Shown in pieces: positions 29,363 to 38,049 of a stretch of 64,000 nucleotides of DNA (positions within the stretch are counted from its first letter, which is position 1; every line of letters begins with the position of its first letter). The stretch is from Gammaproteobacteria bacterium (GTDB lineage Bacteria; Pseudomonadota; Gammaproteobacteria; SZUA-229). The notes beneath the pieces were generated by a model that saw nothing but the letters and a program-made list of their open reading frames with translations, was not told the origin of the DNA and did no database searches. The stretch is taken from assembly GCA_026995045.1 (NCBI GenBank), contig JALWPK010000050.1, positions 11,805 to 75,804 on the forward strand, read 5' to 3'. Position numbers and translations under genes: made by a program.

Positions 29363-32300
29363 TCATACATCGCTTATCTCGTTCCACAGCTTCTTCAGAC
29401 GCTTCTCCGACACCGGGAAGCGGGTTTTAAGCTCCTGCGCAAACAGCGATACACGGTACTCTTCCAGCATCCAGCGATAATGATTCAGTTGTGGTGAATT
29501 GATCTGCTGCTTGTTGGCGTGATCATGCCTTTTGCGCCATGCCTGCCACAAGTCTGCAAACGCCAGTCGCAATTGCCGGTCACGCGTTGCATTGTGCTGC
29601 GCTTTTTCCAACCGCAACCCGATTGCCCTGAGATAGCGAGGATACTGGCGCAACCACTCGGCAGGCGTGGCAGTAATGAACGATTTGGCAAACAAGTTAT
29701 CAAGTTGCAGCTGAATGTCTGACACCATGTCCAGCTGCGGCAGTAACGGGTTTTTGATTTGCTTGCTGACAGCCCGGTATTGCTGAAGGATCTCCTGCAG
29801 CAAGCCACACCACTTTTCTGCGATGTCGTATAACTGCGAGCGCCCCTGCGCCAGCCGCTGCTCAAACTGTTCAATATTTTCTACTGCCTCCTGCATAAAA
29901 ATTTCATCGATGACTTTTTCAACAATGCTGTTTTTCAGTTCGTCGCAGCCACCAAGCGCGCTGTGTTGCAAACACAGGTTTTGCATGCCGGGCAAGTCCC
30001 TGCGCAATTGTCTGATTTGATCCGGCATGGCATTGATGAACAACTGACGCAGCGCAATACGCGTTTCTGTCTGCGCCTGTTGCTGCGATTCCAGTACGCG
30101 AAGATTAACCTGCCTGCCCTGCCGCACCAGCGCCGGCCAGGCGCGAATGCTGACGCCGTGCATATCAATATCGACGGTTTCAGGCATTGCTTCCAGTACG
30201 TCCACGCCAACATTGTCCTGATGCCATGCCGATTGTTCAGTTTGGGTTTCTGACACCGCCGTCGCCGCGTCAGGCATGTCAGCCAGCTGCTGTCTCAGCG
30301 CCGCCAGATCGCGCCCCTCCGCCAGGGTCTCGCCATCCGCATCGATAACGCGAAAGTTCATGAACAGGTGTGGCGGTAATTGCTGTAACTGCCACGCGTC
30401 AAACGGCACTTGCACGCCTGTCATTTTTTTAAGCTGTGTCGCCAGCGCAGCACACAGACCCGTATTGTCCGGTGTCAGCGCCTCCACACAGGCATCGGCA
30501 AAATTGGGCGCGGGCACAAAGTTTTTACGCAGCGCCTTGGGCAGCGAGCGAATCAGCGCAACAATTTTTTCATGCAACAGGCCGGGTATCAGCCATTCAC
30601 AATGCTGTGGATTCAGCGCCTGCAAACCCGCAAGCGGCGTAATCAGGGTGACGCCATCACAATGGCGATCCGGGTCGAAGTGATATTCCAGCGGGAAACG
30701 GCAACCGTTGAACATCAGGCTGTCGGGAAACTGCTCTGAGGAGACGACCGTAGCATCATCGCGCATCAGTTGATCTCGGGTCAGCAGCAAGGCCGCAGCC
30801 TGATCGGGATGCTGCTTACACCACTTTTCCAGCTCTCTTGTCTGACTGATGTGCTGTGGCAGGCGCGCATCATAAAATTCAAACAGCCGGTTTTCATCAA
30901 TTACATCACGGCGGCGCGACTTGGCTTCCAGCTTTTCCAGTTCGGCCAGCAGCTGCCGGTTTTGCAGATAAAAATCTGCGCGGGTATCGATATCTCCGGC
31001 GACCAGCGTATCACGAATAAATATTTCACGTGCTTCATCCAGGTTGACCTTGCCATAATCGATCTTGCGCTCTGCATACACCACCAGCCCGTACAAGGTT
31101 GCCTGTTCATGCGCCACCACCTGTCCACGTTTTTTCTCCCAGTGCGGGTTGCTGGCATGCCTTTTCAGTAAATGCCTGGCGGCCTGCTCCAGCCAGCGCA
31201 CATCGATTTTGGCTGCGGTGCGCGCATACACGCGCGTTGTCTCCACAATTTCCGCCGCCATCAGCCATTTGGGTGGCGACTTGAACAGGGCCGAGCCGGG
31301 AAACACGTTAAACTTTCTGTTGTGCGCACCCTGAAAGCTTTTGTCTTCATCGCGCAAGCCGATATTCGCCAGCAGGCCTGAGAGCAATGCACGGTGGATG
31401 GCGTCGTAATCGGCTGCTGTTTTGTTGAATGTCATTTTTGCATCCAGCAGCATACGTTTGATTTGATGATGCGTGTCCAACCACTCGCGCATGCGCATCC
31501 ACGCTATATAATGCTGCTTGCACCATTTGCGCAGCTGACTGGCGGACAGCGCCTGCTTTTCTCTGTGGTATGCCTGCCACAGATTGAGATAAAAAACAAA
31601 ATCGGAATCCTTGTCGCTGAACATCGCATGTTTTTCGTCCGCTGCCTGTTGCTTGTCCATGGGGCGATCGCGCACATCCTGCACTGCCAGCGCGGAAACA
31701 ATTACCAGCACTTCGCTCAGCGCGCCTTCTTTTTCTGCCTGCAACAGCATGCGCGCCAGTTTCGGGTCGATCGGCAGCCGCGCCAGTCGCCGACCAGTGT
31801 CAGTCAGGCGGTTGTGTTGATTGACTGCGCCCAGTTCATACAGCAGTTTATAGCCATCGCTGATCAGGCGGCTTTCCGGCGGCTCGACGAAGGGAAAATC
31901 ATCGATATGCCCCAACCGCTGGTTTTCCATTTGCAGAATCACCGAGGCCAGGCTGGTGCGCTGGATTTCCGGTTCGGTGAATTCCGGCCGCTGGTTAAAG
32001 TCATCTTCATCGTATAAACGTATGCAAATGCCTTCCGATACACGTCCACAACGCCCCTTGCGCTGGTTGGCGGAAGCCTGTGAAATTTTTTCTATCGGCA
32101 GGCGCTGTATCTTGCTGCGCCAGGAATAACGCGATATGCGCGCCAGCCCGGAATCAATCACATACTTGATGCCGGGCACCGTCAGCGAGGTTTCCGCCAC
32201 ATTGGTCGCCAGCACAATGCGCCGCCACGATGAGGGATGAAAAATGCGGTTTTGCTCGGCGTTGGACAGCCGCGCCAGCAGGGGCAACACTTCAGTGTTG

Positions 32301-33253
32301 CCCCAGATTTGCGGGCGGCCACTGCGCTGCATGTGTTTGTGAATGGCGTCGCGGGTTTCGCGTATATCACGCTCGCCGCTCAGAAACACCAGCACATCGC
32401 CGCGGCTGTGCTCGCTGAGTTCTTCAATTGCATCGATGACGCCCTGCTGCAGGGTTTTGCTTTCATCAGCATCGACCTGCTGCAATGGACGGTAACGCAC
32501 TTCCACCGGCCAGGTCCGGCCGGAGACATTGATGATGGGGGCATCATTAAAGTGCCGGGAAAAGCGTTCCGGGTCAATCGTCGCCGAAGTAATAATCAGT
32601 TTCAGGTCTTTTCGTTTTTGCAGCAGACGCTTCAGATAGCCCAGCAGAAAATCAATGTTAAGACTGCGCTCGTGCGCTTCGTCAACAATGATGGTGTCGT
32701 ACTGATTGAGATACGGGTCATGCTGGCACTCGGCCAGCAAGATGCCGTCGGTCATCAACTTGATATAACTGTTGTCATTCGACTTGTCGGCAAACCGCAC
32801 CTTGTAGCCAACCGCTTCACCGAGTTCGACGTGGAGCTCTTCGGCAATGCGCTGGCTGACCGTGCGCGCGGCGAGACGGCGCGGCTGGGTATGGCCGATC
32901 TTGCCACGCACGCCCAGCCCCAGTTCGAGACAGATTTTGGGCAACTGCGTGGTTTTGCCGGAGCCGGTTTCGCCACACAACACCGTGACCTGATTCTCCC
33001 GAATCGTTTGTTTGATGCTTTCCGCCTTTTGCGAAATCGGCAGCTCCGGCGGGTAGCTCACCGGCGGGATGTTCTGCCGCCGCTGCGCCGCCACCGCAAT
33101 GGAGGCATCCACGTCGCGCTGCAACTGCGTCAGCATGGCCTGTTGCCTGTCGCGGTCACCCAGTTTGCGGATTTTTTGCAGGCGGCGGCGCAACCGGTGC
33201 ACATCGGTCAACATGCATTGTTGCAACTGTTTTTGCAGGCGGGAAAGTGTCAA
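29363..33253 (-). CDS. hrpA: ATP-dependent RNA helicase HrpA (DEAH box)
   Basis: 1296 aa with GETGSGKTTQLP, DEAHER and TNVAETSLTVPGI motifs, and the long C-terminal extension typical of HrpA. Confidence 0.95.
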   Translation of the reverse strand: MTLSRLQKQLQQCMLTDVHRLRRRLQKIRKLGDRDRQQAMLTQLQRDVDASIAVAAQRRQNIPPVSYPPELPISQKAESIKQTIRENQVTVLCGETGSGKTTQLPKICLELGLGVRGKIGHTQPRRLAARTVSQRIAEELHVELGEAVGYKVRFADKSNDNSYIKLMTDGILLAECQHDPYLNQYDTIIVDEAHERSLNIDFLLGYLKRLLQKRKDLKLIITSATIDPERFSRHFNDAPIINVSGRTWPVEVRYRPLQQVDADESKTLQQGVIDAIEELSEHSRGDVLVFLSGERDIRETRDAIHKHMQRSGRPQIWGNTEVLPLLARLSNAEQNRIFHPSSWRRIVLATNVAETSLTVPGIKYVIDSGLARISRYSWRSKIQRLPIEKISQASANQRKGRCGRVSEGICIRLYDEDDFNQRPEFTEPEIQRTSLASVILQMENQRLGHIDDFPFVEPPESRLISDGYKLLYELGAVNQHNRLTDTGRRLARLPIDPKLARMLLQAEKEGALSEVLVIVSALAVQDVRDRPMDKQQAADEKHAMFSDKDSDFVFYLNLWQAYHREKQALSASQLRKWCKQHYIAWMRMREWLDTHHQIKRMLLDAKMTFNKTAADYDAIHRALLSGLLANIGLRDEDKSFQGAHNRKFNVFPGSALFKSPPKWLMAAEIVETTRVYARTAAKIDVRWLEQAARHLLKRHASNPHWEKKRGQVVAHEQATLYGLVVYAERKIDYGKVNLDEAREIFIRDTLVAGDIDTRADFYLQNRQLLAELEKLEAKSRRRDVIDENRLFEFYDARLPQHISQTRELEKWCKQHPDQAAALLLTRDQLMRDDATVVSSEQFPDSLMFNGCRFPLEYHFDPDRHCDGVTLITPLAGLQALNPQHCEWLIPGLLHEKIVALIRSLPKALRKNFVPAPNFADACVEALTPDNTGLCAALATQLKKMTGVQVPFDAWQLQQLPPHLFMNFRVIDADGETLAEGRDLAALRQQLADMPDAATAVSETQTEQSAWHQDNVGVDVLEAMPETVDIDMHGVSIRAWPALVRQGRQVNLRVLESQQQAQTETRIALRQLFINAMPDQIRQLRRDLPGMQNLCLQHSALGGCDELKNSIVEKVIDEIFMQEAVENIEQFEQRLAQGRSQLYDIAEKWCGLLQEILQQYRAVSKQIKNPLLPQLDMVSDIQLQLDNLFAKSFITATPAEWLRQYPRYLRAIGLRLEKAQHNATRDRQLRLAFADLWQAWRKRHDHANKQQINSPQLNHYRWMLEEYRVSLFAQELKTRFPVSEKRLKKLWNEISDV

Positions 33254-33327: not shown

Positions 33328-33513
33328 TCAGATGGCCTTGTTCTTGCGCTGACCACAGCGACTGCAGCGATAGACCGTGACCAGCCGGCCAGCCTTGCTG
33401 TCGAACTCGCTGTCTTTCAGCAACACCCATTTGTGAAACCCGTTGCGGCACAGGGTGTTGCCACGATGCTTTTCCGAAAGCTTGCGTTTTTTGAACGGGA
33501 TAATGTCTGCCAT
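33328..33513 (-). CDS. small hypothetical Cys/His-containing protein (possible zinc ribbon)
   Basis: 61 aa. It has C-x4-H (CRNGFH) and CSRC pairs and a basic N-terminus. No family recognised. Confidence 0.4.
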   Translation of the reverse strand: MADIIPFKKRKLSEKHRGNTLCRNGFHKWVLLKDSEFDSKAGRLVTVYRCSRCGQRKNKAI

Positions 33514-33787
33514 AGTGTGATTTTGCCAGAAAACTGCCTGCAGCGTGATTTTTGGCTGCTGGCGAACAGCTTCCCGCCTCTGTGTCAGGGTATTTATAGC
33601 CGCGATCAGGATAACTCATCTTGAGTTTTTCGCCCGCATCCTGTGACCGGTTTCACCTTTTTGGGCCGGACTCCGCCGTTACCGGCAAAAGTGTGAACTC
33701 TGTCCAATCGCTTTTTTCAGGGTAGTCTTTACTCACACTCAACAAGAACAACAAAACACATTCACAAAAAACATTGGGGAAAACGCC

Positions 33788-34234
33788 ATGAAAAAACACA
33801 ATAACAAAAACACTTTTTACTCATCGAAAATCATCAAGGCGCTGGCTGCTGTATTCATCCTGCTGCAACTGGCTGCCTGTAACCAGGACGCCATTGTTGC
33901 ACTTGGCGGCAACGCACAGAACAGTTCAGATGCCAGCAACACATCTACGACTGTTGTAACCGGCGCGGTTGCCGCAAAACTGAGCTGGGTTGCTCCCGCC
34001 AGCCGCGCCGACAACTCACCGATTGCACTCAGCGAAATTGCCGGTTACCGCATCTACTATAAAACCTCAAATGGGGTATACCAGCGATATGCCGACATCA
34101 ACGATGCTTACACGACTGAAGTGGATATCGACGCCAACCTGCTGCCGGCCAATGCTGTTGCCGTTGTCATGACCACGGTGGATACCGGTGGCCGGGAAAG
34201 CGCTTACTCTGCTGAAGTTCTTCTGGGCGCATAA
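33788..34234 (+). CDS. hypothetical lipoprotein with FN3-like domain
   Basis: Lipobox LQLAAC. The mature part has LSWVAPASRADNSPIALSEIAGYRIYY, which is reminiscent of a fibronectin type III fold. Confidence 0.55.
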   Translation: MKKHNNKNTFYSSKIIKALAAVFILLQLAACNQDAIVALGGNAQNSSDASNTSTTVVTGAVAAKLSWVAPASRADNSPIALSEIAGYRIYYKTSNGVYQRYADINDAYTTEVDIDANLLPANAVAVVMTTVDTGGRESAYSAEVLLGA

Positions 34235-34445
34235 CCGCAACAACAATGCTTATCAAAATGTTCCGGAAGGCAGGGCGACTAATTTTTTAGGAGATTATAT
34301 AACAAACCCACAAGATTTAGTCGCTTAGAATGACAAAGCCCTCACTATGCGGGCTTCTTTTTATTCTTAGCCGCCTTTTTCTTTGGCGGTAGAGTGTTAT
34401 ACCATCTTCCTGAGCACATCGTCAGGATCAAGGGTATCTTCTGAC

Positions 34446-34907
34446 TTAATCGAGGTCGAGCTTTCGCTGTGTTTTTTCATGTGGCTTCTCAATAATAAGT
34501 CTAGGATCACCCAGCAATCCGCTTTTCTTTATCAGTTCCCCATCAAACGTATTCATCTTTTTAAGCTTGCAGGATAAAGCTGTGGCGACATGGATAGCAT
34601 CCTTTGGTCTGATGTTATGATCCCACACTAGGTCTCTTGCCATATCTGCAATATTCCGTGTCACATTTTGAACACTGATGTATGGTTGTTTGAAGAAATC
34701 GTCAATTTCCTTTCGCTTGGATATTGGAAGTTTTGGCTGTTTTTGAACATACAATACTTCTGCCAACGTAAGCGCCGATGTGACAAGCAGGATTCTACCG
34801 TCCTCTGCGGCCTCTAAGACCCCTTCGCACAAATCAACCTTATCAGGCTCTTCCTTGAAGAAGCCCAGAAACGCATCAGAATCCCAGTAGCGTTTCTCTA
34901 TAGCCAT
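34446..34907 (-). CDS. PIN-domain nuclease (VapC-like toxin candidate)
   Basis: 153 aa with conserved acidic positions in YWDSDAFL, TSALTLAEV, DAIHVATAL and TFDGELI. Its start codon overlaps the stop of the upstream gene (TAATG). Confidence 0.8.
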   Translation of the reverse strand: MAIEKRYWDSDAFLGFFKEEPDKVDLCEGVLEAAEDGRILLVTSALTLAEVLYVQKQPKLPISKRKEIDDFFKQPYISVQNVTRNIADMARDLVWDHNIRPKDAIHVATALSCKLKKMNTFDGELIKKSGLLGDPRLIIEKPHEKTQRKLDLD

Positions 34908-35653
34908 TAACCTTGCCTGAGTATACCGCGCATCTGTTTATAACTGGGGAGAGTCTCTGGTGGAGGGAAGATTGTAATGTGTTCAACCTTCACGCTTATA
35001 GGACGGCCTTCCCTGTCATACCTGATAAGCCCGTCAACTTCAACGCGCTTCTTAAATGCACCTAAAGCTTGCTGCATTAACTCCTCACTTACAGCGCACT
35101 TAACGCTTTTCCCGAATATTGGATCACACAGCCGAATCTCATAGCCATCATGTGCAGAAACCACATCCAATACGCCTTCTACAGTCCCATGATCCTCATA
35201 TTTCCAACTTAGTATTTCAGATGCGTGATTGTAGGCATTATTTGTTAATGGTACTGCCTGAGTTCTAGATAATACTCTTACAGGTATGCCATTATCAGCT
35301 CGATGAACAAGGCCGCCTAAGGACTTAATATGCTCAACTGCTTTCTCGCTGTACAAATCAGGTATCTCGGCTTCATCACTCAAAGAACCTATTCCATTAA
35401 GCACAGCATTAACTATACTGACTGATTCGATGTCTGTCAGCTTGTTAGTAGATACAGCATTTATTACCTGAGAGCCTTCTTGAACCTCTATTTCCCATGC
35501 GTCTTTGGGAAGAGAGTCTTTTACAGATTTGGTTAGTTCTCTTATCAAACCCACAAAGGATTCCACCGCTCTCAAAAAATCAGAAGCGGTCACACGCTCG
35601 TTATCTAGTTCAAGCGCTATTTGTCCTTTTACTTCATCGGGCTTAATCGCCAT
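34907..35653 (-). CDS. 248-aa protein of unknown function, translationally coupled to the PIN gene
   Basis: Clean ORF starting MAIKPDEV, with no TM segment or signal peptide. I recognise no DNA-binding antitoxin motif. The C-terminal tail is SYKQMRGILRQG. Confidence 0.65.
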   Translation of the reverse strand: MAIKPDEVKGQIALELDNERVTASDFLRAVESFVGLIRELTKSVKDSLPKDAWEIEVQEGSQVINAVSTNKLTDIESVSIVNAVLNGIGSLSDEAEIPDLYSEKAVEHIKSLGGLVHRADNGIPVRVLSRTQAVPLTNNAYNHASEILSWKYEDHGTVEGVLDVVSAHDGYEIRLCDPIFGKSVKCAVSEELMQQALGAFKKRVEVDGLIRYDREGRPISVKVEHITIFPPPETLPSYKQMRGILRQG

Positions 35654-35661
35654 GTCGGTGC

Positions 35662-36021
35662 TTAGATATTTGGTGAGCTTGAGTCCCGGTAGAGTAACCT
35701 CTTACCGACGACATCCTTTAAAGCAATTATAGACCGTTCTGCATCAGATATACCAAGGGAAGGCCGATGGTTATATCTAAAATCGAACTCACAGAGATAA
35801 CGCTTCATATGCGCCTTGGAGCAGTGTTGGAACACGCCCTTCATGCTACGCTTGAAAATGGAGGCGCAACCCTCAATCGTATTAGTGTGAATATCGCCGC
35901 GCACATATTCACCGATCCCATGCTTCACATAGTTGTGAGAAGTGAACTCGGAAATCAATGGAGTCCTAGTCAGCGTGTACTGGGCAGCTTCATCCGTCAT
36001 GATGTGGGGCAGATAGATCAC
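35662..36021 (-). mobile_element. truncated IS1595-family (ISXO2-like) transposase remnant
   Basis: Only the C-terminal ~115 aa are present: GEYVRGDIHTNTIEGCASIFKRSMKGVFQHCSKAHMKRYLCEFDFRYNHR. This matches the conserved end of the DDE_Tnp_IS1595 domain. There is no room for the N-terminal part before the next gene. Confidence 0.7.
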
Positions 36022-36093
36022 TCATGATGTAGTCCTCCAATAGGCTAATACTGACTTATTTAGTTGGGTTTATCAAGTATGCAACTGCTTTTT

Positions 36094-38049
36094 TTACGCC
36101 TGCTGTTTTTGCAACAGCAATGAACCGTTAGACAAAACATCAGCTGCCCAACCCGCCTGCAACCACGTGGTCGAGGCTGTTTCCGTAATTAACGACGGGC
36201 CTGTCACCCTGTCACCCGCCTTGAGTGAATCACGCGCTATGACCAGTGCTTCACCACTTTCCGACCTGTATACAACCGGGGCAACTGCCGCTTCGATTTC
36301 AGGCAGCGCAAACGCCGGTTCAGGAAACATTACTCTTACCCGTAAATTGACCAATTCCACCTCGATATCGAGCCTGTGGCCATAACAGGCTTCATGCTTG
36401 CGATGAAACGCCTGTTGCAGGCTCGCCAGTGATTGCCACGGCAAGTTGAGGCTGTGACTCTGCCCGTGATAGCGCAGGTCAACCTGCTGCTGCACAATAA
36501 TATCTTCGCCAGCAGGCTCGCCCTGGCATAATTCCTGTCTTGCCTGCTTGACCAGTTCCGCAAATTGTTTTTCGATGTGTTGTTCATCGCTGGCAGACAA
36601 CAAGGTATTGACACTGCGTGAACGTTCACGGCTTTGCTGCGCCGCCAGCATGCCCAGCGCAGACAGTACACCGGCATGCACAGGCGACAATGCGCGCTGC
36701 ATGCCCAACGCCTCGGCCAACGCGCACACATGCAAACCGCCGGCGCCGCCAAAACTGACCAGCGTATAATGTTTCGGGTTTTCGCCACGCTGTACCGACA
36801 TCACTCGTAACGCCTGCACCATGTGGTCGTTAACCACATCGATAATACCCTGCGCCGCCTCATGCAAACTGCAACCCAGTTTGTCGGCGATGGTTTGCAC
36901 CGCCGCTTGCGCGGCTTGCTTGTCGAGCGTCATGTTGCCGCCAAGAAACGCCTGTGGCAGCAAACGCCCCAGCACCACATTGGCGTCGGTCACCGTCGGC
37001 AAGCTACCGCCCTTGCCATAACAGGCCGGGCCGGGGTCGGCGCCAGCCGATTGCGGCCCGACCAGTAACAGGCCAGCGTCATCCACCCGGGCAATCGAGC
37101 CGCCGCCTGCGCCGATGGTATGCATATCAATCATCGGCACCGCCACCGGGTAGCCGGCAATTTCGGCCTGATGACTGAAACCGATTTCACCATCGATTAT
37201 CGACACATCGGTCGAGGTGCCGCCCATGTCGAACGTGAGCAAACGCTTGTCATCCGCCACGGTTTTTGCGCCCAGCAAACCGCCAGCCGGACCGGACAAC
37301 AGCAGATGCACCGGATAGCGCCCCGCATGTTCGACACTGGTCACGCCCGCCGAGCTTTGCATCACCGACAAATGACCGCCGGATACGCCCTGCTGCAAAC
37401 GCGCGAGATAATTCTGCATCAGCGGCCCCACCATGGCGTTGAGTGTGGTGGTCATGCCGCGCTCATACTCGCGGTATTCCGGCAACACATCGGAGGATCG
37501 CGATACAAACACCCTGTCGCCATAATGCTGCTGAATCGCCTGCTCAATGCGCACTTCTTCCGACTCATCTATAAAGGAGAACAGCAGGTTGATGGCCACG
37601 GCTTCGGGCTGCAAGGCGTCCAGCCGGTTTAACAGTTCACGCAGTTTGTCATCATCCAGTCGTGACAACAGCTCGCCTTGCGCTGACAAACGCGAATCGA
37701 CTTCCACGCATTGCTCGTGCGGCAACAGCGGCGGCTTTTTGACTGGCGTCAGGTTATACAACTCGCGTCGCGCCTGGCGGCCAATCGCCAGCACATCGGC
37801 CAGACCAGTGTTGGTGATATACACCGTTTTCACGCCCTTGCCTTCGAGAATGGCGTTGGTGGCGACCGTGGAGCCGTGGATAATCTCCAGACCCTGCGTT
37901 TGCAAGCCAAGCTCACGAATGCCCTGCAATATCGCCTGCTCCGGCGTATGCGGCGTCGACAACACCTTGTGAAGACGCAGGCTGCCGTCTTCCTGTTGCA
38001 GAAGAAAATCGGTAAAGGTGCCGCCGGTGTCTACCCCCAGAATCATCAT
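36094..38049 (-). CDS. hydantoinase A / oxoprolinase-family protein
   Basis: 651 aa with an N-terminal ILGVDTGGTFTDF and later GGPAGG/GGTSTD-type ATPase motifs. Confidence 0.85.
   Translation of the reverse strand: MMILGVDTGGTFTDFLLQQEDGSLRLHKVLSTPHTPEQAILQGIRELGLQTQGLEIIHGSTVATNAILEGKGVKTVYITNTGLADVLAIGRQARRELYNLTPVKKPPLLPHEQCVEVDSRLSAQGELLSRLDDDKLRELLNRLDALQPEAVAINLLFSFIDESEEVRIEQAIQQHYGDRVFVSRSSDVLPEYREYERGMTTTLNAMVGPLMQNYLARLQQGVSGGHLSVMQSSAGVTSVEHAGRYPVHLLLSGPAGGLLGAKTVADDKRLLTFDMGGTSTDVSIIDGEIGFSHQAEIAGYPVAVPMIDMHTIGAGGGSIARVDDAGLLLVGPQSAGADPGPACYGKGGSLPTVTDANVVLGRLLPQAFLGGNMTLDKQAAQAAVQTIADKLGCSLHEAAQGIIDVVNDHMVQALRVMSVQRGENPKHYTLVSFGGAGGLHVCALAEALGMQRALSPVHAGVLSALGMLAAQQSRERSRSVNTLLSASDEQHIEKQFAELVKQARQELCQGEPAGEDIIVQQQVDLRYHGQSHSLNLPWQSLASLQQAFHRKHEACYGHRLDIEVELVNLRVRVMFPEPAFALPEIEAAVAPVVYRSESGEALVIARDSLKAGDRVTGPSLITETASTTWLQAGWAADVLSNGSLLLQKQQA

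What the first reader, a model, noticed from the sequence alone, without database searches (positions are those of the whole stretch)
34446..35653. PIN nuclease translationally coupled to a 248-aa partner of unknown fold: candidate non-canonical toxin-antitoxin or defence module
Two minus-strand genes share one base (TAATG at 34905-34909), so they form one operon and are probably translationally coupled. The downstream product is a clear PIN-domain protein, with acidic residues in YWDSDAFL, LAEV, DAIHVATAL and TFDGELI. The upstream product is 248 aa, roughly three times the size of classical VapB-type antitoxins. I cannot see an RHH, AbrB, HTH or Phd-like DNA-binding motif in it. Only its extreme C-terminus (SYKQMRGILRQG) looks like the short basic tails that some antitoxins use to occupy a PIN active site. 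The pair is visibly AT-richer than the flanking core genes and abuts a truncated IS1595-type transposase, which suggests horizontal acquisition. A large sensor-like partner coupled to a PIN effector is an architecture seen in phage-defence systems, and I cannot assign this pair to any named system.
Basis: partly seen in the sequence, partly recalled or inferred. Interest (0 to 1): 0.7.

Follow-up and report, generated by a model that had tools for sequence, protein, structure and literature searches.

The report
PIN toxin pair carried by IS1595
A PIN nuclease gene and an uncharacterised 248-aa partner gene form a conserved, widespread pair that is the standing cargo of a lineage of IS1595 insertion sequences; the window holds a decayed copy whose transposase is broken but whose gene pair is intact.

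Summary
Two minus-strand genes (34907..35653, 248 aa; 34446..34907, 153 aa) overlap in TAATG. The second is a PIN domain with four invariant acidic residues.

The partner matches no Pfam, NCBIfam, PADLOC, PHROG or PDB entry. It nevertheless belongs to a large unannotated family (2,462 clusters at 50% identity). Its model shows an N-terminal alpha/beta domain with no solved homologue, a C-terminal OB fold and a conserved basic tail.

In about 19 distinct loci the partner is followed by the PIN gene in all but one. Three of three PIN relatives chosen independently have the partner upstream.

The new finding is that the pair does not merely abut an IS fragment. It lies inside an IS1595-family "transporter IS". 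Three complete relatives have terminal inverted repeats and 8-bp target duplications enclosing transposase, partner, PIN and a small ORF. Transposase and PIN diverge together.

The window copy (about 34290..36088) keeps the left end and a degenerate right end, and its transposase has an internal deletion.

The best reading is a VapC-like toxin with a non-canonical large antitoxin that acts as an addiction or defence module of the IS. The IS-cargo part is shown; neutralisation is inferred. This is a new variant of a known kind.

The parts
34907..35653 (-). Partner gene ('X', 248 aa). It has an N-terminal alpha/beta domain (aa 1-148) with no solved homologue, an OB fold (aa ~152-229) and a conserved basic C-terminal tail (LPSYkqmRGIL, aa ~235-248). 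It is the putative non-canonical antitoxin or adaptor of the PIN protein.
   Evidence: ORF. No curated family. AF2 model pLDDT 84.9. OB matches to the LysRS anticodon-binding domain, SSB, Stn1 and ExoVII. N-domain model pLDDT 91.7 with no PDB match. Family of 2,462 clusters. Acidic, pI 5.2, with a basic tail.
34446..34907 (-). PIN-domain nuclease (153 aa), VapC-like, the putative toxin or effector. Its start codon overlaps the partner's stop codon (TAATG).
   Evidence: Pfam PF01850 E 6.3e-14. D9, E50, D103 and D122 invariant in 10 orthologues. At least 894 relatives at E<=1e-10, some named VapC-family toxin by NCBI. No close solved structure.
35662..36003 (-). C-terminal remnant of an IS1595-family DDE transposase. 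It corresponds to aa 200-308 of the full 309-aa protein of L011 and ends 8 nt upstream of the partner's start codon.
   Evidence: Pfam DDE_Tnp_IS1595 E 3.6e-17 and NCBIfam transpos_IS1595 E 3.2e-16, C-terminal part only. 61% identity to L011 transposase aa 200-308.
35990..36025 (-). 5' remnant of the same transposase gene (MSDLSAPH..., then out of frame). An internal deletion of about 190 codons joins it to the C-terminal remnant. An imperfect 25-nt tandem repeat lies at the junction (35982-36030).
   Evidence: Sequence read, compared with the L011 start MCDLSAPH. Repeat at the junction.
36061..36088 (-). Left terminal inverted repeat of the IS1595-type element (GCAGTTGCATACTTGATAAACCCAACT...). 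It starts right after the stop codon of the neighbouring hydantoinase/oxoprolinase-like gene.
   Evidence: Aligns with the left ends of L010, L011, L013 and L014 through the shared core ATACTTGA(C/T)A and with L010 through AAACCCAA.TAAAT.AGTCA.
34290..34314 (-). Probable degenerate right terminal inverted repeat (plus strand GGAGATTATATAAC-AAACCCACAAG, with a 4-nt gap relative to the L010 end). It is flanked by a 7/8 A/T-rich putative target duplication: 34282-34289 ATTTTTTA and 36089-36096 TTTTTTTA.
   Evidence: Local alignment to the L010 end; 39 of 2000 shuffles reach the score. The duplication is low-complexity, so it is weak evidence.
34345..34480 (-). Remnant of the small Lys-rich ORF that follows PIN in IS-linked copies. 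It is split by a 1-nt insertion near 34399. The repaired product would be MKKHSESSTSIKSEDTLDPDDVLRKMVNTLPPKKKAAKNKKKPA.
   Evidence: Comparison with the L011 51-aa ORF (...DPDEVLRRMLNTPPKP...KKNKRKKT) and with small ORFs at the same position in L013, L014 and L030.

Best explanation
The two genes are a toxin-antitoxin-like module. The toxin or effector is a VapC-type PIN ribonuclease. The 248-aa acidic partner is translated just before it from the same mRNA. The partner most likely binds and neutralises the PIN protein, probably through its conserved basic C-terminal tail, which follows an OB-fold domain.

The module is the standing cargo of one lineage of IS1595-family 'transporter' insertion sequences, laid out as IR - transposase - partner - PIN - small ORF - IR with 8-bp target duplications. 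The window holds a decayed, non-autonomous copy at about 34290..36088, inserted between a hydantoinase-like gene and a small secreted-protein gene. Its transposase has lost about 190 internal codons and its small ORF is frameshifted, but the partner and PIN genes remain intact.

The likely role is to make the element, or the DNA carrying it, hard to lose (addiction), and possibly to abort phage infection.

Shown: the gene pair, the PIN domain, the partner's fold, conserved co-occurrence, IS membership of the cargo, and co-divergence with the transposase.

Inferred: toxicity of the PIN, neutralisation by the partner, the role of the tail, and the biological role.
For: Pair and coupling:
- The TAATG overlap is present.
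- In other loci the two genes mostly overlap by 1-11 nt; in a few they lie 2-17 nt apart.

PIN competence:
- Pfam PIN E 6e-14.
- Four acidic residues are invariant.
- NCBI names some relatives VapC-family toxins.

Co-occurrence:
- The partner is followed by PIN in all distinct loci except L009.
- Three of three PIN relatives chosen from the PIN side (54-58% identity) have a partner-family gene upstream.
- Partner and PIN identities co-vary (rho 0.82 over 91 pairs). The partner evolves faster, with mean identity 36% against 56% for PIN.

Asymmetric decay:
- The partner is found without PIN once (L009). PIN was not seen with the partner absent. The one broken partner gene, a frameshift in the L022 MAG, is intact on eight metagenome contigs that carry the identical PIN.
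- In decayed elements (the window, L002, L019) the transposase is lost while both genes stay intact.

Partner features:
- It is acidic (pI 5.2) with a basic, conserved tail modelled at low confidence (P236, G243 and I244 invariant in the close set A1; P236 also across the 47-member set).

IS cargo:
- Three complete elements have 23-28-nt IRs and 8-bp duplications: L011 (2,765 bp), L013 (3,146 bp) and L014 (4,375 bp).
- The same gene order occurs in L010 and L030.
- Transposase remnants or element ends occur in the window, L002, L009, L018, L019 and L021.
- Transposase and PIN identities correlate (rho 0.97 over 10 pairs).

Precedents:
- IS1595 transporter IS with passenger genes (Siguier 2009, as cited in PMC11891212 and PMC3129680).
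- TA pairs, including PIN toxins, as integral parts of Tn3 transposons (PMC7157771).
Against: - No experiment or complex model shows that the PIN is toxic or that the partner neutralises it.
- The partner has two well-folded domains (about 230 aa) and no recognisable DNA-binding antitoxin domain. This is more than simple neutralisation needs and fits a sensor or substrate adaptor equally well.
- The OB domain resembles tRNA-anticodon and ssDNA binders, which could mean substrate recruitment and not inhibition.
- Retention of the pair in decayed elements fits host-beneficial selection, such as defence, as well as addiction.
- The window's right end and target duplication are degenerate, so its exact right boundary is uncertain.
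- The context sample is about 19 distinct loci out of thousands of family members.
Confidence: 0.58

Rival explanations
1. This is an anti-phage, abortive-infection type, two-gene system. The large partner is a sensor or adaptor: its OB fold and novel N-terminal domain recognise a phage-derived cue (ssDNA, an SSB-like protein or an RNA) and then release or direct the PIN nuclease. The IS, prophages and other mobile elements only spread it. This partly overlaps with the main explanation, because TA modules often act as defence systems.
For: - The partner is large and has two folded domains.
- The OB fold resembles nucleic-acid binders.
- L001 sits between a reverse transcriptase and GIY-YIG, Macro and Type ISP restriction genes.
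- A distant partner+PIN pair lies in the immunity region of Pseudomonas phage vB_PaeS_AV001 and in four identical prophage contigs.
- L030 adjoins an N6_N4_Mtase/Mrr_cat gene.
- The L014 element also carries an HTH/ImmA-IrrE gene.
- There is a marginal PADLOC PDC-M32A signal.
- Full-length structural matches exist to uncharacterised phage proteins, one of which contains DUF6575, a domain reported in an E. coli defence protein.
Against: - No defence-family model is matched at a meaningful level (3 of 47 members, best E 7e-4).
- Many loci, including the window, L013, L023 and L031, lie among housekeeping genes.
- The dominant association is with a transposase, not with defence islands.
- The OB domain and the whole partner are acidic, which is unusual for a nucleic-acid sensor.
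- No phage phenotype is known.
Confidence: 0.22
2. The pair is an accessory part of the transposition machinery or its control in this IS1595 lineage. For example, the OB-fold protein could bind transposition intermediates or the element's ends while the PIN nuclease processes DNA flaps or degrades transposase mRNA. It would then not be a selfish toxin-antitoxin module.
For: - Transposase, partner, PIN and small ORF form a tight operon with 8-50-nt or overlapping junctions across deep divergence.
- Transposase and PIN identities correlate strongly (rho 0.97).
- In Tn3 elements, TA genes have been argued to be integrated with the transposition module (PMC7157771).
Against: - The pair persists intact where the transposase is deleted (the window, L002, L019). 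It also occurs with no transposase in phage, resolvase-linked and chromosomal contexts.
- Most IS1595-family elements have no such genes (established knowledge of the family; transporter IS are described as carrying genes not involved in transposition).
- The PIN is a short VapC-type domain with no FEN-like additions.
Confidence: 0.1
3. The pair is a constitutive two-subunit ribonuclease. The partner is an RNA-binding specificity subunit, using its OB fold as Dis3/Rrp44 combines PIN and OB-type domains, and is not an inhibitor. No toxin-antitoxin behaviour would be involved.
For: - OB-fold similarity to the anticodon-binding domains of LysRS, and one family member reaching Pfam tRNA_anti-codon at E 7e-5.
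- Strict co-occurrence and co-variation of the two proteins.
Against: - The distribution is confined to mobile elements and is patchy.
- The region has a foreign base composition.
- The gene order and start/stop overlap are those typical of antitoxin-toxin pairs.
- The partner survives without PIN in L009.
- The OB domain is acidic.
Confidence: 0.08

Closest known systems
VapBC type II toxin-antitoxin systems (PIN-domain VapC toxin with a VapB antitoxin)
   Same: A short PIN-domain protein (~150 aa) with the four conserved acidic residues. The partner gene lies immediately upstream with a stop/start overlap. The partner is acidic and evolves faster than the PIN. The partner has a conserved C-terminal segment that could contact the PIN. 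The location is on mobile DNA.
   Different: The partner is 248 aa, about three times the size of VapB. It has no RHH, AbrB, HTH or Phd DNA-binding domain. It is built from a novel alpha/beta domain plus an OB fold. Neither protein matches any NCBIfam TA model. Toxicity and neutralisation are untested.
Toxin-antitoxin pairs embedded in Tn3-family transposons (Lima-Mendez et al. 2020, PMC7157771)
   Same: A TA-type pair, including PIN and PIN_3 toxins, is carried inside a DDE transposon close to the transposition genes. It appears to be a stable part of the element and not random cargo.
   Different: The transposon family differs: IS1595, with a transposase of ~310 aa, 8-bp duplications and no resolvase. 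The antitoxins in Tn3 are all canonical small families (RHH_6, Phd, AbrB, HTH_37, ParD, MNT). Here the whole element can be as small as 2.8 kb.
IS1595-family transporter IS (tIS) with passenger genes (Siguier, Gagnevin & Chandler 2009, as cited in PMC11891212 and PMC3129680)
   Same: An IS1595-type transposase (Zn ribbon plus DDE_Tnp_IS1595), terminal inverted repeats, 8-bp target duplications, and extra genes inside the repeats.
   Different: The passenger genes cited in the texts I could read are transcription regulators (ISNha5). I found no description of a PIN plus OB-fold partner cargo. I could not consult ISfinder or the 2009 paper, so prior listing there cannot be excluded.
OB-fold nucleic-acid-binding domains (LysRS/AspRS anticodon-binding domain, bacterial SSB, Stn1, ExoVII large subunit)
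   Same: Partner residues ~152-229 have the five-strand OB topology with a helix between strands 3 and 4. Foldseek probability is 1.0 with E down to 4.5e-4. One family member matches Pfam tRNA_anti-codon.
   Different: Sequence identity is 11-21% and TM-scores normalised to the small targets are ~0.5-0.6. The domain is acidic (pI 5.5). It is fused to an unrelated N-terminal domain and a basic tail. No nucleic-acid binding has been shown.

Membership tests
VapBC type II toxin-antitoxin | The toxin is a PIN domain with conserved acidic active-site residues | tested here: met
   PF01850 E 6.3e-14. D9, E50, D103 and D122 invariant in 10 orthologues.
VapBC type II toxin-antitoxin | The antitoxin gene lies directly upstream in the same operon, usually overlapping the toxin gene | tested here: met
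   TAATG overlap. The same order recurs in ~18 other loci, mostly with overlaps of 1-11 nt and otherwise with gaps of 2-17 nt.
VapBC type II toxin-antitoxin | The antitoxin is a small protein (~70-100 aa) with an N-terminal RHH, AbrB, HTH or Phd DNA-binding domain | tested here: not met
   The partner is 248 aa. No such domain appears in Pfam or NCBIfam for it or for 47 family members. The model shows a novel alpha/beta domain plus an OB fold.
VapBC type II toxin-antitoxin | The toxin inhibits growth and the antitoxin neutralises it by direct binding | not testable with these tools
   This needs expression experiments or at least a complex model. The structure tool takes single chains only.
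IS1595-family insertion sequence / transporter IS | The transposase has an N-terminal Zn ribbon and a DDE_Tnp_IS1595 catalytic domain | tested here: inconclusive
   Full-length genes occur in L010, L011, L013, L014 and L030. In the window only the first 8 codons and the last ~109 codons remain, so the window copy is a defective derivative.
IS1595-family insertion sequence / transporter IS | Terminal inverted repeats bound the element | tested here: inconclusive
   Clear in L011 (28 nt, 86%), L013 (28 nt) and L014 (22 of 23). The window's left end is clear. Its right end is degenerate, with a 4-nt gap and 39 of 2000 shuffles reaching the score.
IS1595-family insertion sequence / transporter IS | 8-bp target-site duplication | tested here: inconclusive
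   Perfect 8-bp duplications in L011 (GAAGGAAG), L013 (ATTTTCTA) and L014 (TTAACTTG). In the window only 7 of 8 match and the sequence is low-complexity, TAAAAAAA against TAAAAAAT.
IS1595-family insertion sequence / transporter IS | Passenger genes lie inside the inverted repeats | tested here: met
   The partner, PIN and small ORF lie between the repeats in L011, L013 and L014. In the window they lie between the left end and the probable right end.
PADLOC candidate defence system PDC-M32 | The protein matches the PDC-M32A model | tested here: not met
   The window protein scores E 0.0034 at 14 bits. Only 3 of 47 family members match, best E 6.7e-4. The PIN matches no PADLOC model.
OB-fold (tRNA_anti-codon/SSB-like) domain | Five-stranded beta-barrel with OB topology, detectable by structure or profile comparison | tested here: met
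   DSSP strands at 152-166, 172-177, 182-187, 203-212 and 218-229, with a helix at 190-198. Foldseek matches to LysRS, SSB, Stn1 and ExoVII OB domains. One member matches PF01336 at E 6.9e-5.

The most novel reading that the evidence does not exclude
An entire lineage of IS1595 insertion sequences has co-evolved with its own three-gene module: a novel-domain/OB-fold protein, a PIN nuclease and a small basic peptide. In the most novel reading this is not passive cargo. It would couple the element's fate to the cell. For example, the OB-fold protein could sense a nucleic-acid state (transposition intermediates, element loss or phage ssDNA) and gate the PIN nuclease. That would make a minimal IS that enforces its own retention or defends its host, using a new antitoxin/sensor fold found in thousands of unannotated proteins.
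Probability: 0.2. Interest if true: 0.8.

Novelty: new variant of a known kind. Interest (0 to 1): 0.58.

Why it matters
The partner belongs to a family with over a thousand clusters at E<=1e-10 (2,462 at E<=1e-3). That family has no Pfam, NCBIfam, PADLOC or PDB representation, and it is strictly paired with a VapC-like PIN nuclease. Characterising it would add a new antitoxin or sensor architecture (a novel domain plus an OB fold) to the TA and defence repertoire.

It would also fix a systematic annotation gap. One phage copy of the PIN is currently labelled 'repressor protein'.

The stable, co-diverging link to an IS1595 lineage extends the idea that transposons carry their own addiction modules from the large Tn3 elements to near-minimal insertion sequences. 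It could also explain why the gene pair outlives the transposase in decayed copies such as the one in this window.

Tried and rejected
- Curated libraries for the partner: single-sequence and 47-member family scans against Pfam, NCBIfam, PADLOC and PHROGs gave nothing significant. The weak hits (PaRep2b, DUF2150, HflX, PDC-M32A) were rejected as noise or marginal.
- PDB sequence searches with the single protein and with the profile gave nothing.
- The PIN against PDB, by sequence and by profile, gave nothing useful.
- A fold search with the N-terminal domain alone found no significant match.
- A genome-contig scan with the broad alignment failed for lack of a conserved stretch. With the close alignment it gave only one locus.
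- The metagenome scan gave 5 loci and the viral scan none. The plasmid tblastn gave none.
- I first read L009 (partner without PIN in a phage-like contig) as a phage-encoded anti-toxin. I dropped that reading after finding an IS1595 transposase remnant just upstream. It is more simply a decayed element that lost the toxin gene.
- I looked for a clean right inverted repeat and target duplication in the window and found only a degenerate candidate.
- The sigma-70 promoter and terminator scan of the region was no better than shuffles.
- Rfam, tRNA and tandem-repeat scans found nothing relevant.
Full report
**1. Observation**

The 248-aa ORF is at 34907..35653 and the 153-aa ORF at 34446..34907. 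The stop of the first and the start of the second overlap in TAATG.

The 153-aa product matches Pfam PIN (PF01850, E 6.3e-14, 53 bits against a cut-off of 23.6). All the quoted motifs are present. In an alignment with nine orthologues from other loci, the four acidic residues D9, E50, D103 and D122 are invariant. The nuclease therefore looks catalytically competent.

The region is AT-richer than its flanks, with GC 0.41-0.46 against 0.52-0.63. The ORF just upstream, 35662..36021(-), matches only the C-terminal half of the IS1595 transposase models (Pfam E 3.6e-17, NCBIfam E 3.2e-16).

**2. The 248-aa partner**

The partner has no significant match in Pfam, NCBIfam, PADLOC, PHROGs or PDB sequences.

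The word-indexed search of 5.8 billion proteins found only 16 clusters, all ~250 aa and unnamed. The exhaustive profile search of 1.84 billion representatives found much more: 2,462 clusters at E<=1e-3, 1,202 at E<=1e-10 and 198 at E<=1e-30. Nearly all are 240-255 aa and match end to end. This is a large, coherent and unannotated family.

I scanned 47 diverse members against Pfam and found no shared family. One member reaches the tRNA_anti-codon OB-fold model (E 6.9e-5). Another is fused to an IS1595 transposase fragment.

The AlphaFold2 model is confident (mean pLDDT 84.9). It shows three parts:
- An N-terminal alpha/beta domain (aa 1-148). Modelled alone it is even more confident (pLDDT 91.7, pTM 0.88), yet it has no significant match in the PDB (best E 0.087).
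- A classical OB fold (strands at 152-166, 172-177, 182-187, 203-212 and 218-229, with a helix at 190-198). It matches the OB domains of lysyl-tRNA synthetases, SSBs, Stn1 and the ExoVII large subunit (E 4.5e-4 and weaker, probability 1.0, ~100-120 columns).
- A short C-terminal helix (aa 238-246) modelled with lower confidence.

The tail motif LPSYxxxRGIL is conserved (P236, G243 and I244 invariant in the close set; P236 invariant across 47 members). The protein is acidic overall (pI 5.2, net charge about -10), including the OB domain (pI 5.5). The tail is basic.

Three uncharacterised phage proteins match over the full length in BFVD (E 1e-10 to 4e-9). So 'unknown fold' is right for the N-terminal half and wrong for the C-terminal half.

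**3. Co-occurrence with PIN**

Among the loci recovered through the partner, a PIN gene follows immediately in every distinct locus except L009. In most loci the two genes overlap by 1-11 nt; in a few they lie 2-17 nt apart. This holds down to 24-27% partner identity (L014, L015 and the Pseudomonas phage vB_PaeS_AV001 pair).

I also tested the pairing from the other side. The PIN has at least 894 relatives at E<=1e-10. I picked three for their long contigs (54-58% identity). All three have a Pfam-less gene of 249-254 aa overlapping their start. A profile search confirmed these as partner-family members (E 2e-40 to 1e-61).

Across 14 loci, partner and PIN pairwise identities co-vary (Spearman 0.82 over 91 non-independent pairs). 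The partner is the faster-evolving protein, with mean identity 36% against 56% for PIN.

**4. The pair is cargo of an IS1595 lineage**

This is the main new result.

In L010, L011, L013, L014 and L030, a full-length IS1595 transposase (Zn_ribbon_IS1595 + DDE_Tnp_IS1595, ~310 aa) lies on the same strand 8-50 nt upstream of the partner. The PIN gene and a small Lys-rich ORF of 48-58 aa follow (L010 ends inside its PIN gene).

Three of these are complete elements:
- L011, 31-2795: 28-nt inverted repeats, 8-bp duplication GAAGGAAG.
- L013, 5979-9124: 28-nt repeats, duplication ATTTTCTA.
- L014, 5921-10295: repeats matching at 22 of 23 positions, duplication TTAACTTG. This element also carries a 206-aa ORF and an HTH/ImmA-IrrE gene.

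The ends share the core ATACTTGACA.

Loci I first counted as IS-free also carry traces:
- L002, L019 and even L009 have short transposase C-terminal remnants directly upstream of the partner.
- L018 starts within the transposase.
- L021 has a matching right end downstream of its PIN.

In all, at least 11 of ~19 distinct loci show linkage to this IS.

Among the five intact loci, transposase and PIN identities are tightly correlated (Spearman 0.97 over 10 pairs). Each IS-linked partner's nearest relative is an IS-free one. The simplest history is one old association, co-divergence, and repeated decay of the transposase that leaves the pair behind.

IS1595 'transporter IS' with passenger genes are a known category (Siguier et al. 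2009, as cited in PMC11891212 and PMC3129680). I found no description of this cargo. I could not consult ISfinder or the 2009 paper.

**5. Anatomy of the window copy**

The left end (36061-36088, minus strand: GCAGTTGCATACTTGATAAACCCAACT) aligns with the left ends of L010, L011, L013 and L014. It begins right after the stop codon of the neighbouring 651-aa gene.

The transposase start is kept (ATG at 36025; MSDLSAPH, compared with MCDLSAPH in L011). After eight codons the sequence jumps, out of frame, to the equivalent of residue ~200 (IMTDEA...). From there it runs to the normal stop, 8 nt before the partner's ATG, at 61% identity to L011 over residues 200-308. This is an internal deletion of about 190 codons. 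An imperfect 25-nt tandem repeat marks the junction.

Downstream of PIN, the small ORF is recognisable but split by one extra base near 34399.

A candidate right end lies at 34290-34314. It matches the L010 end only with a 4-nt gap, and 39 of 2000 shuffles score as well. The flanking 8-mers agree at 7 of 8 but are A/T runs. I call the right boundary probable, not proven.

The copy is about 1.8 kb and cannot move by itself. No other IS1595 transposase is present in the 64-kb window. The partner and PIN genes are intact and keep all family-invariant residues.

**6. Mechanism**

The best-supported reading is a VapC-type toxin with a non-canonical, large, acidic antitoxin, carried as an addiction module that may also act in defence.

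The evidence is indirect:
- the antitoxin-then-toxin order with start/stop overlap;
- a competent PIN;
- strict pairing and co-variation, with the partner evolving faster;
- a conserved, basic, flexible C-terminal tail of the kind that VapB-type antitoxins use to reach the PIN pocket (established knowledge of VapBC structures; not tested here);
- exclusive residence on mobile DNA;
- asymmetric decay.

On the last point, the transposase and small ORF decay while both genes persist. The partner survives without PIN (L009). PIN was never seen with the partner absent. The one broken partner gene (L022) is a frameshift in a MAG, whereas eight metagenome contigs with the identical PIN have the partner intact.

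The closest precedent is the finding that TA pairs, including PIN toxins, are integral parts of Tn3-family transposons (PMC7157771).

The size and two folded domains of the partner remain unexplained. The OB fold could bind an operator, the PIN's RNA substrate or a trigger.

**7. Rivals**

- A defence system with the partner as sensor has circumstantial support: the L001 neighbourhood of reverse transcriptase, GIY-YIG, Macro and Type ISP genes; the prophage immunity-region copies; and a marginal PDC-M32A signal. It has no family match and no phenotype. It overlaps with the TA reading.
- A role in transposition fits the tight operon and the co-divergence. It is weakened by the many transposase-less copies.
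- A constitutive two-subunit RNase fits the OB fold. It does not fit the mobile, patchy distribution.

**8. Verdict**

The finding is real and uncharacterised. I would file it as a new variant of a known kind: a VapC-like PIN module with a new partner architecture, embedded in an IS1595 transporter IS.

It fails one defining feature of VapBC, the small DNA-binding antitoxin, so it should not be annotated as VapB/VapC. It most likely works like one.

Interest is moderate to good. It is a large unannotated family with a clear experimental path, and a minimal IS lineage that carries its own putative addiction or defence module.

Noticed in passing
window 34345-34480 (-); L011 2239-2394; L013 8205-8351; L014 8225-8401; L030 4483-4635: A small Lys-rich ORF (44-58 aa) follows or overlaps the PIN stop codon. 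Among loci whose downstream sequence was available, it was seen only in the IS-linked copies and is absent from L001, L002, L005, L015, L023 and L031. The window's copy is split by a 1-nt insertion. Its function is unknown; it may belong to the IS and not to the toxin pair.
   Followed up: partly
L009 2796-3545: A partner-family gene with no PIN gene sits in a phage-like contig (YbcO, VRR_NUC, DUF1353, Amidase_2 neighbours). A 20-aa IS1595 transposase C-terminal remnant lies just upstream, so it looks like a decayed element that lost the toxin and kept the putative antitoxin.
   Followed up: partly
L016 3743-5102 (Pseudomonas phage vB_PaeS_AV001, PQ349086.1 35161-36520); L032-L035: A distant partner homologue (278 aa, 24% identity) and an overlapping PIN gene lie next to the phage repressor. 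The PIN gene (vBPaeSAV001_055) is annotated 'repressor protein', which is probably a mis-annotation. The partner homologue recurs at 100% identity in four IMG/VR Pseudomonas prophage contigs; I did not check whether the PIN gene follows it there.
   Followed up: partly
L014 5921-10295: This complete 4,375-bp IS1595-type element carries, beyond transposase, partner, PIN and small ORF, a 206-aa ORF with no family and a 372-aa HTH_3/Peptidase_M78 (ImmA/IrrE-like) gene. All lie inside the inverted repeats.
   Followed up: no
L001 6249-15536: Here the pair lies between a 485-aa RVT_1 reverse transcriptase and GIY-YIG, Macro-domain and 1,644-aa Type ISP restriction-modification genes. The neighbourhood resembles a defence island.
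   Followed up: no
L011 2394-2542: A 27-nt inverted repeat (93% complementary, 95-nt spacer) lies in the ~370-nt non-coding stretch between the small ORF and the right end of the element. It could be a terminator or a structured RNA or DNA site. It is not present in the window copy.
   Followed up: no
window 35982-36030: An imperfect 25-nt tandem repeat (79% identity) lies exactly at the junction of the transposase internal deletion. Both copies contain ACATCATGA, once at the start codon and once at the IMTDE motif.
   Followed up: partly
L022 3257-4001: In a Hyphomicrobium MAG the partner gene is split by a frameshift. Eight metagenome contigs encoding the identical PIN have an intact 249-aa partner. 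This is either an assembly error or a recent pseudogene.
   Followed up: partly
window 33328-34234: Just outside the element there are two ORFs. One is a 148-aa ORF (33788..34234, +) with a signal/lipoprotein-like N-terminus and a weak fn3 hit (E 0.034). The other is a 61-aa Cys-rich ORF (33328..33513, -) next to the 1,296-aa ORF (29363..33253, -), which by its motifs looks like an HrpA-type helicase (not scanned here). GC is somewhat low here too (0.48-0.53).
   Followed up: no
L005-L008, L012 (uncultured gammaproteobacterium MAG): In this group the pair follows a serine recombinase (Resolvase, 203 aa) and two small ORFs instead of an IS1595 transposase. This suggests a second kind of mobile carrier.
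   Followed up: no
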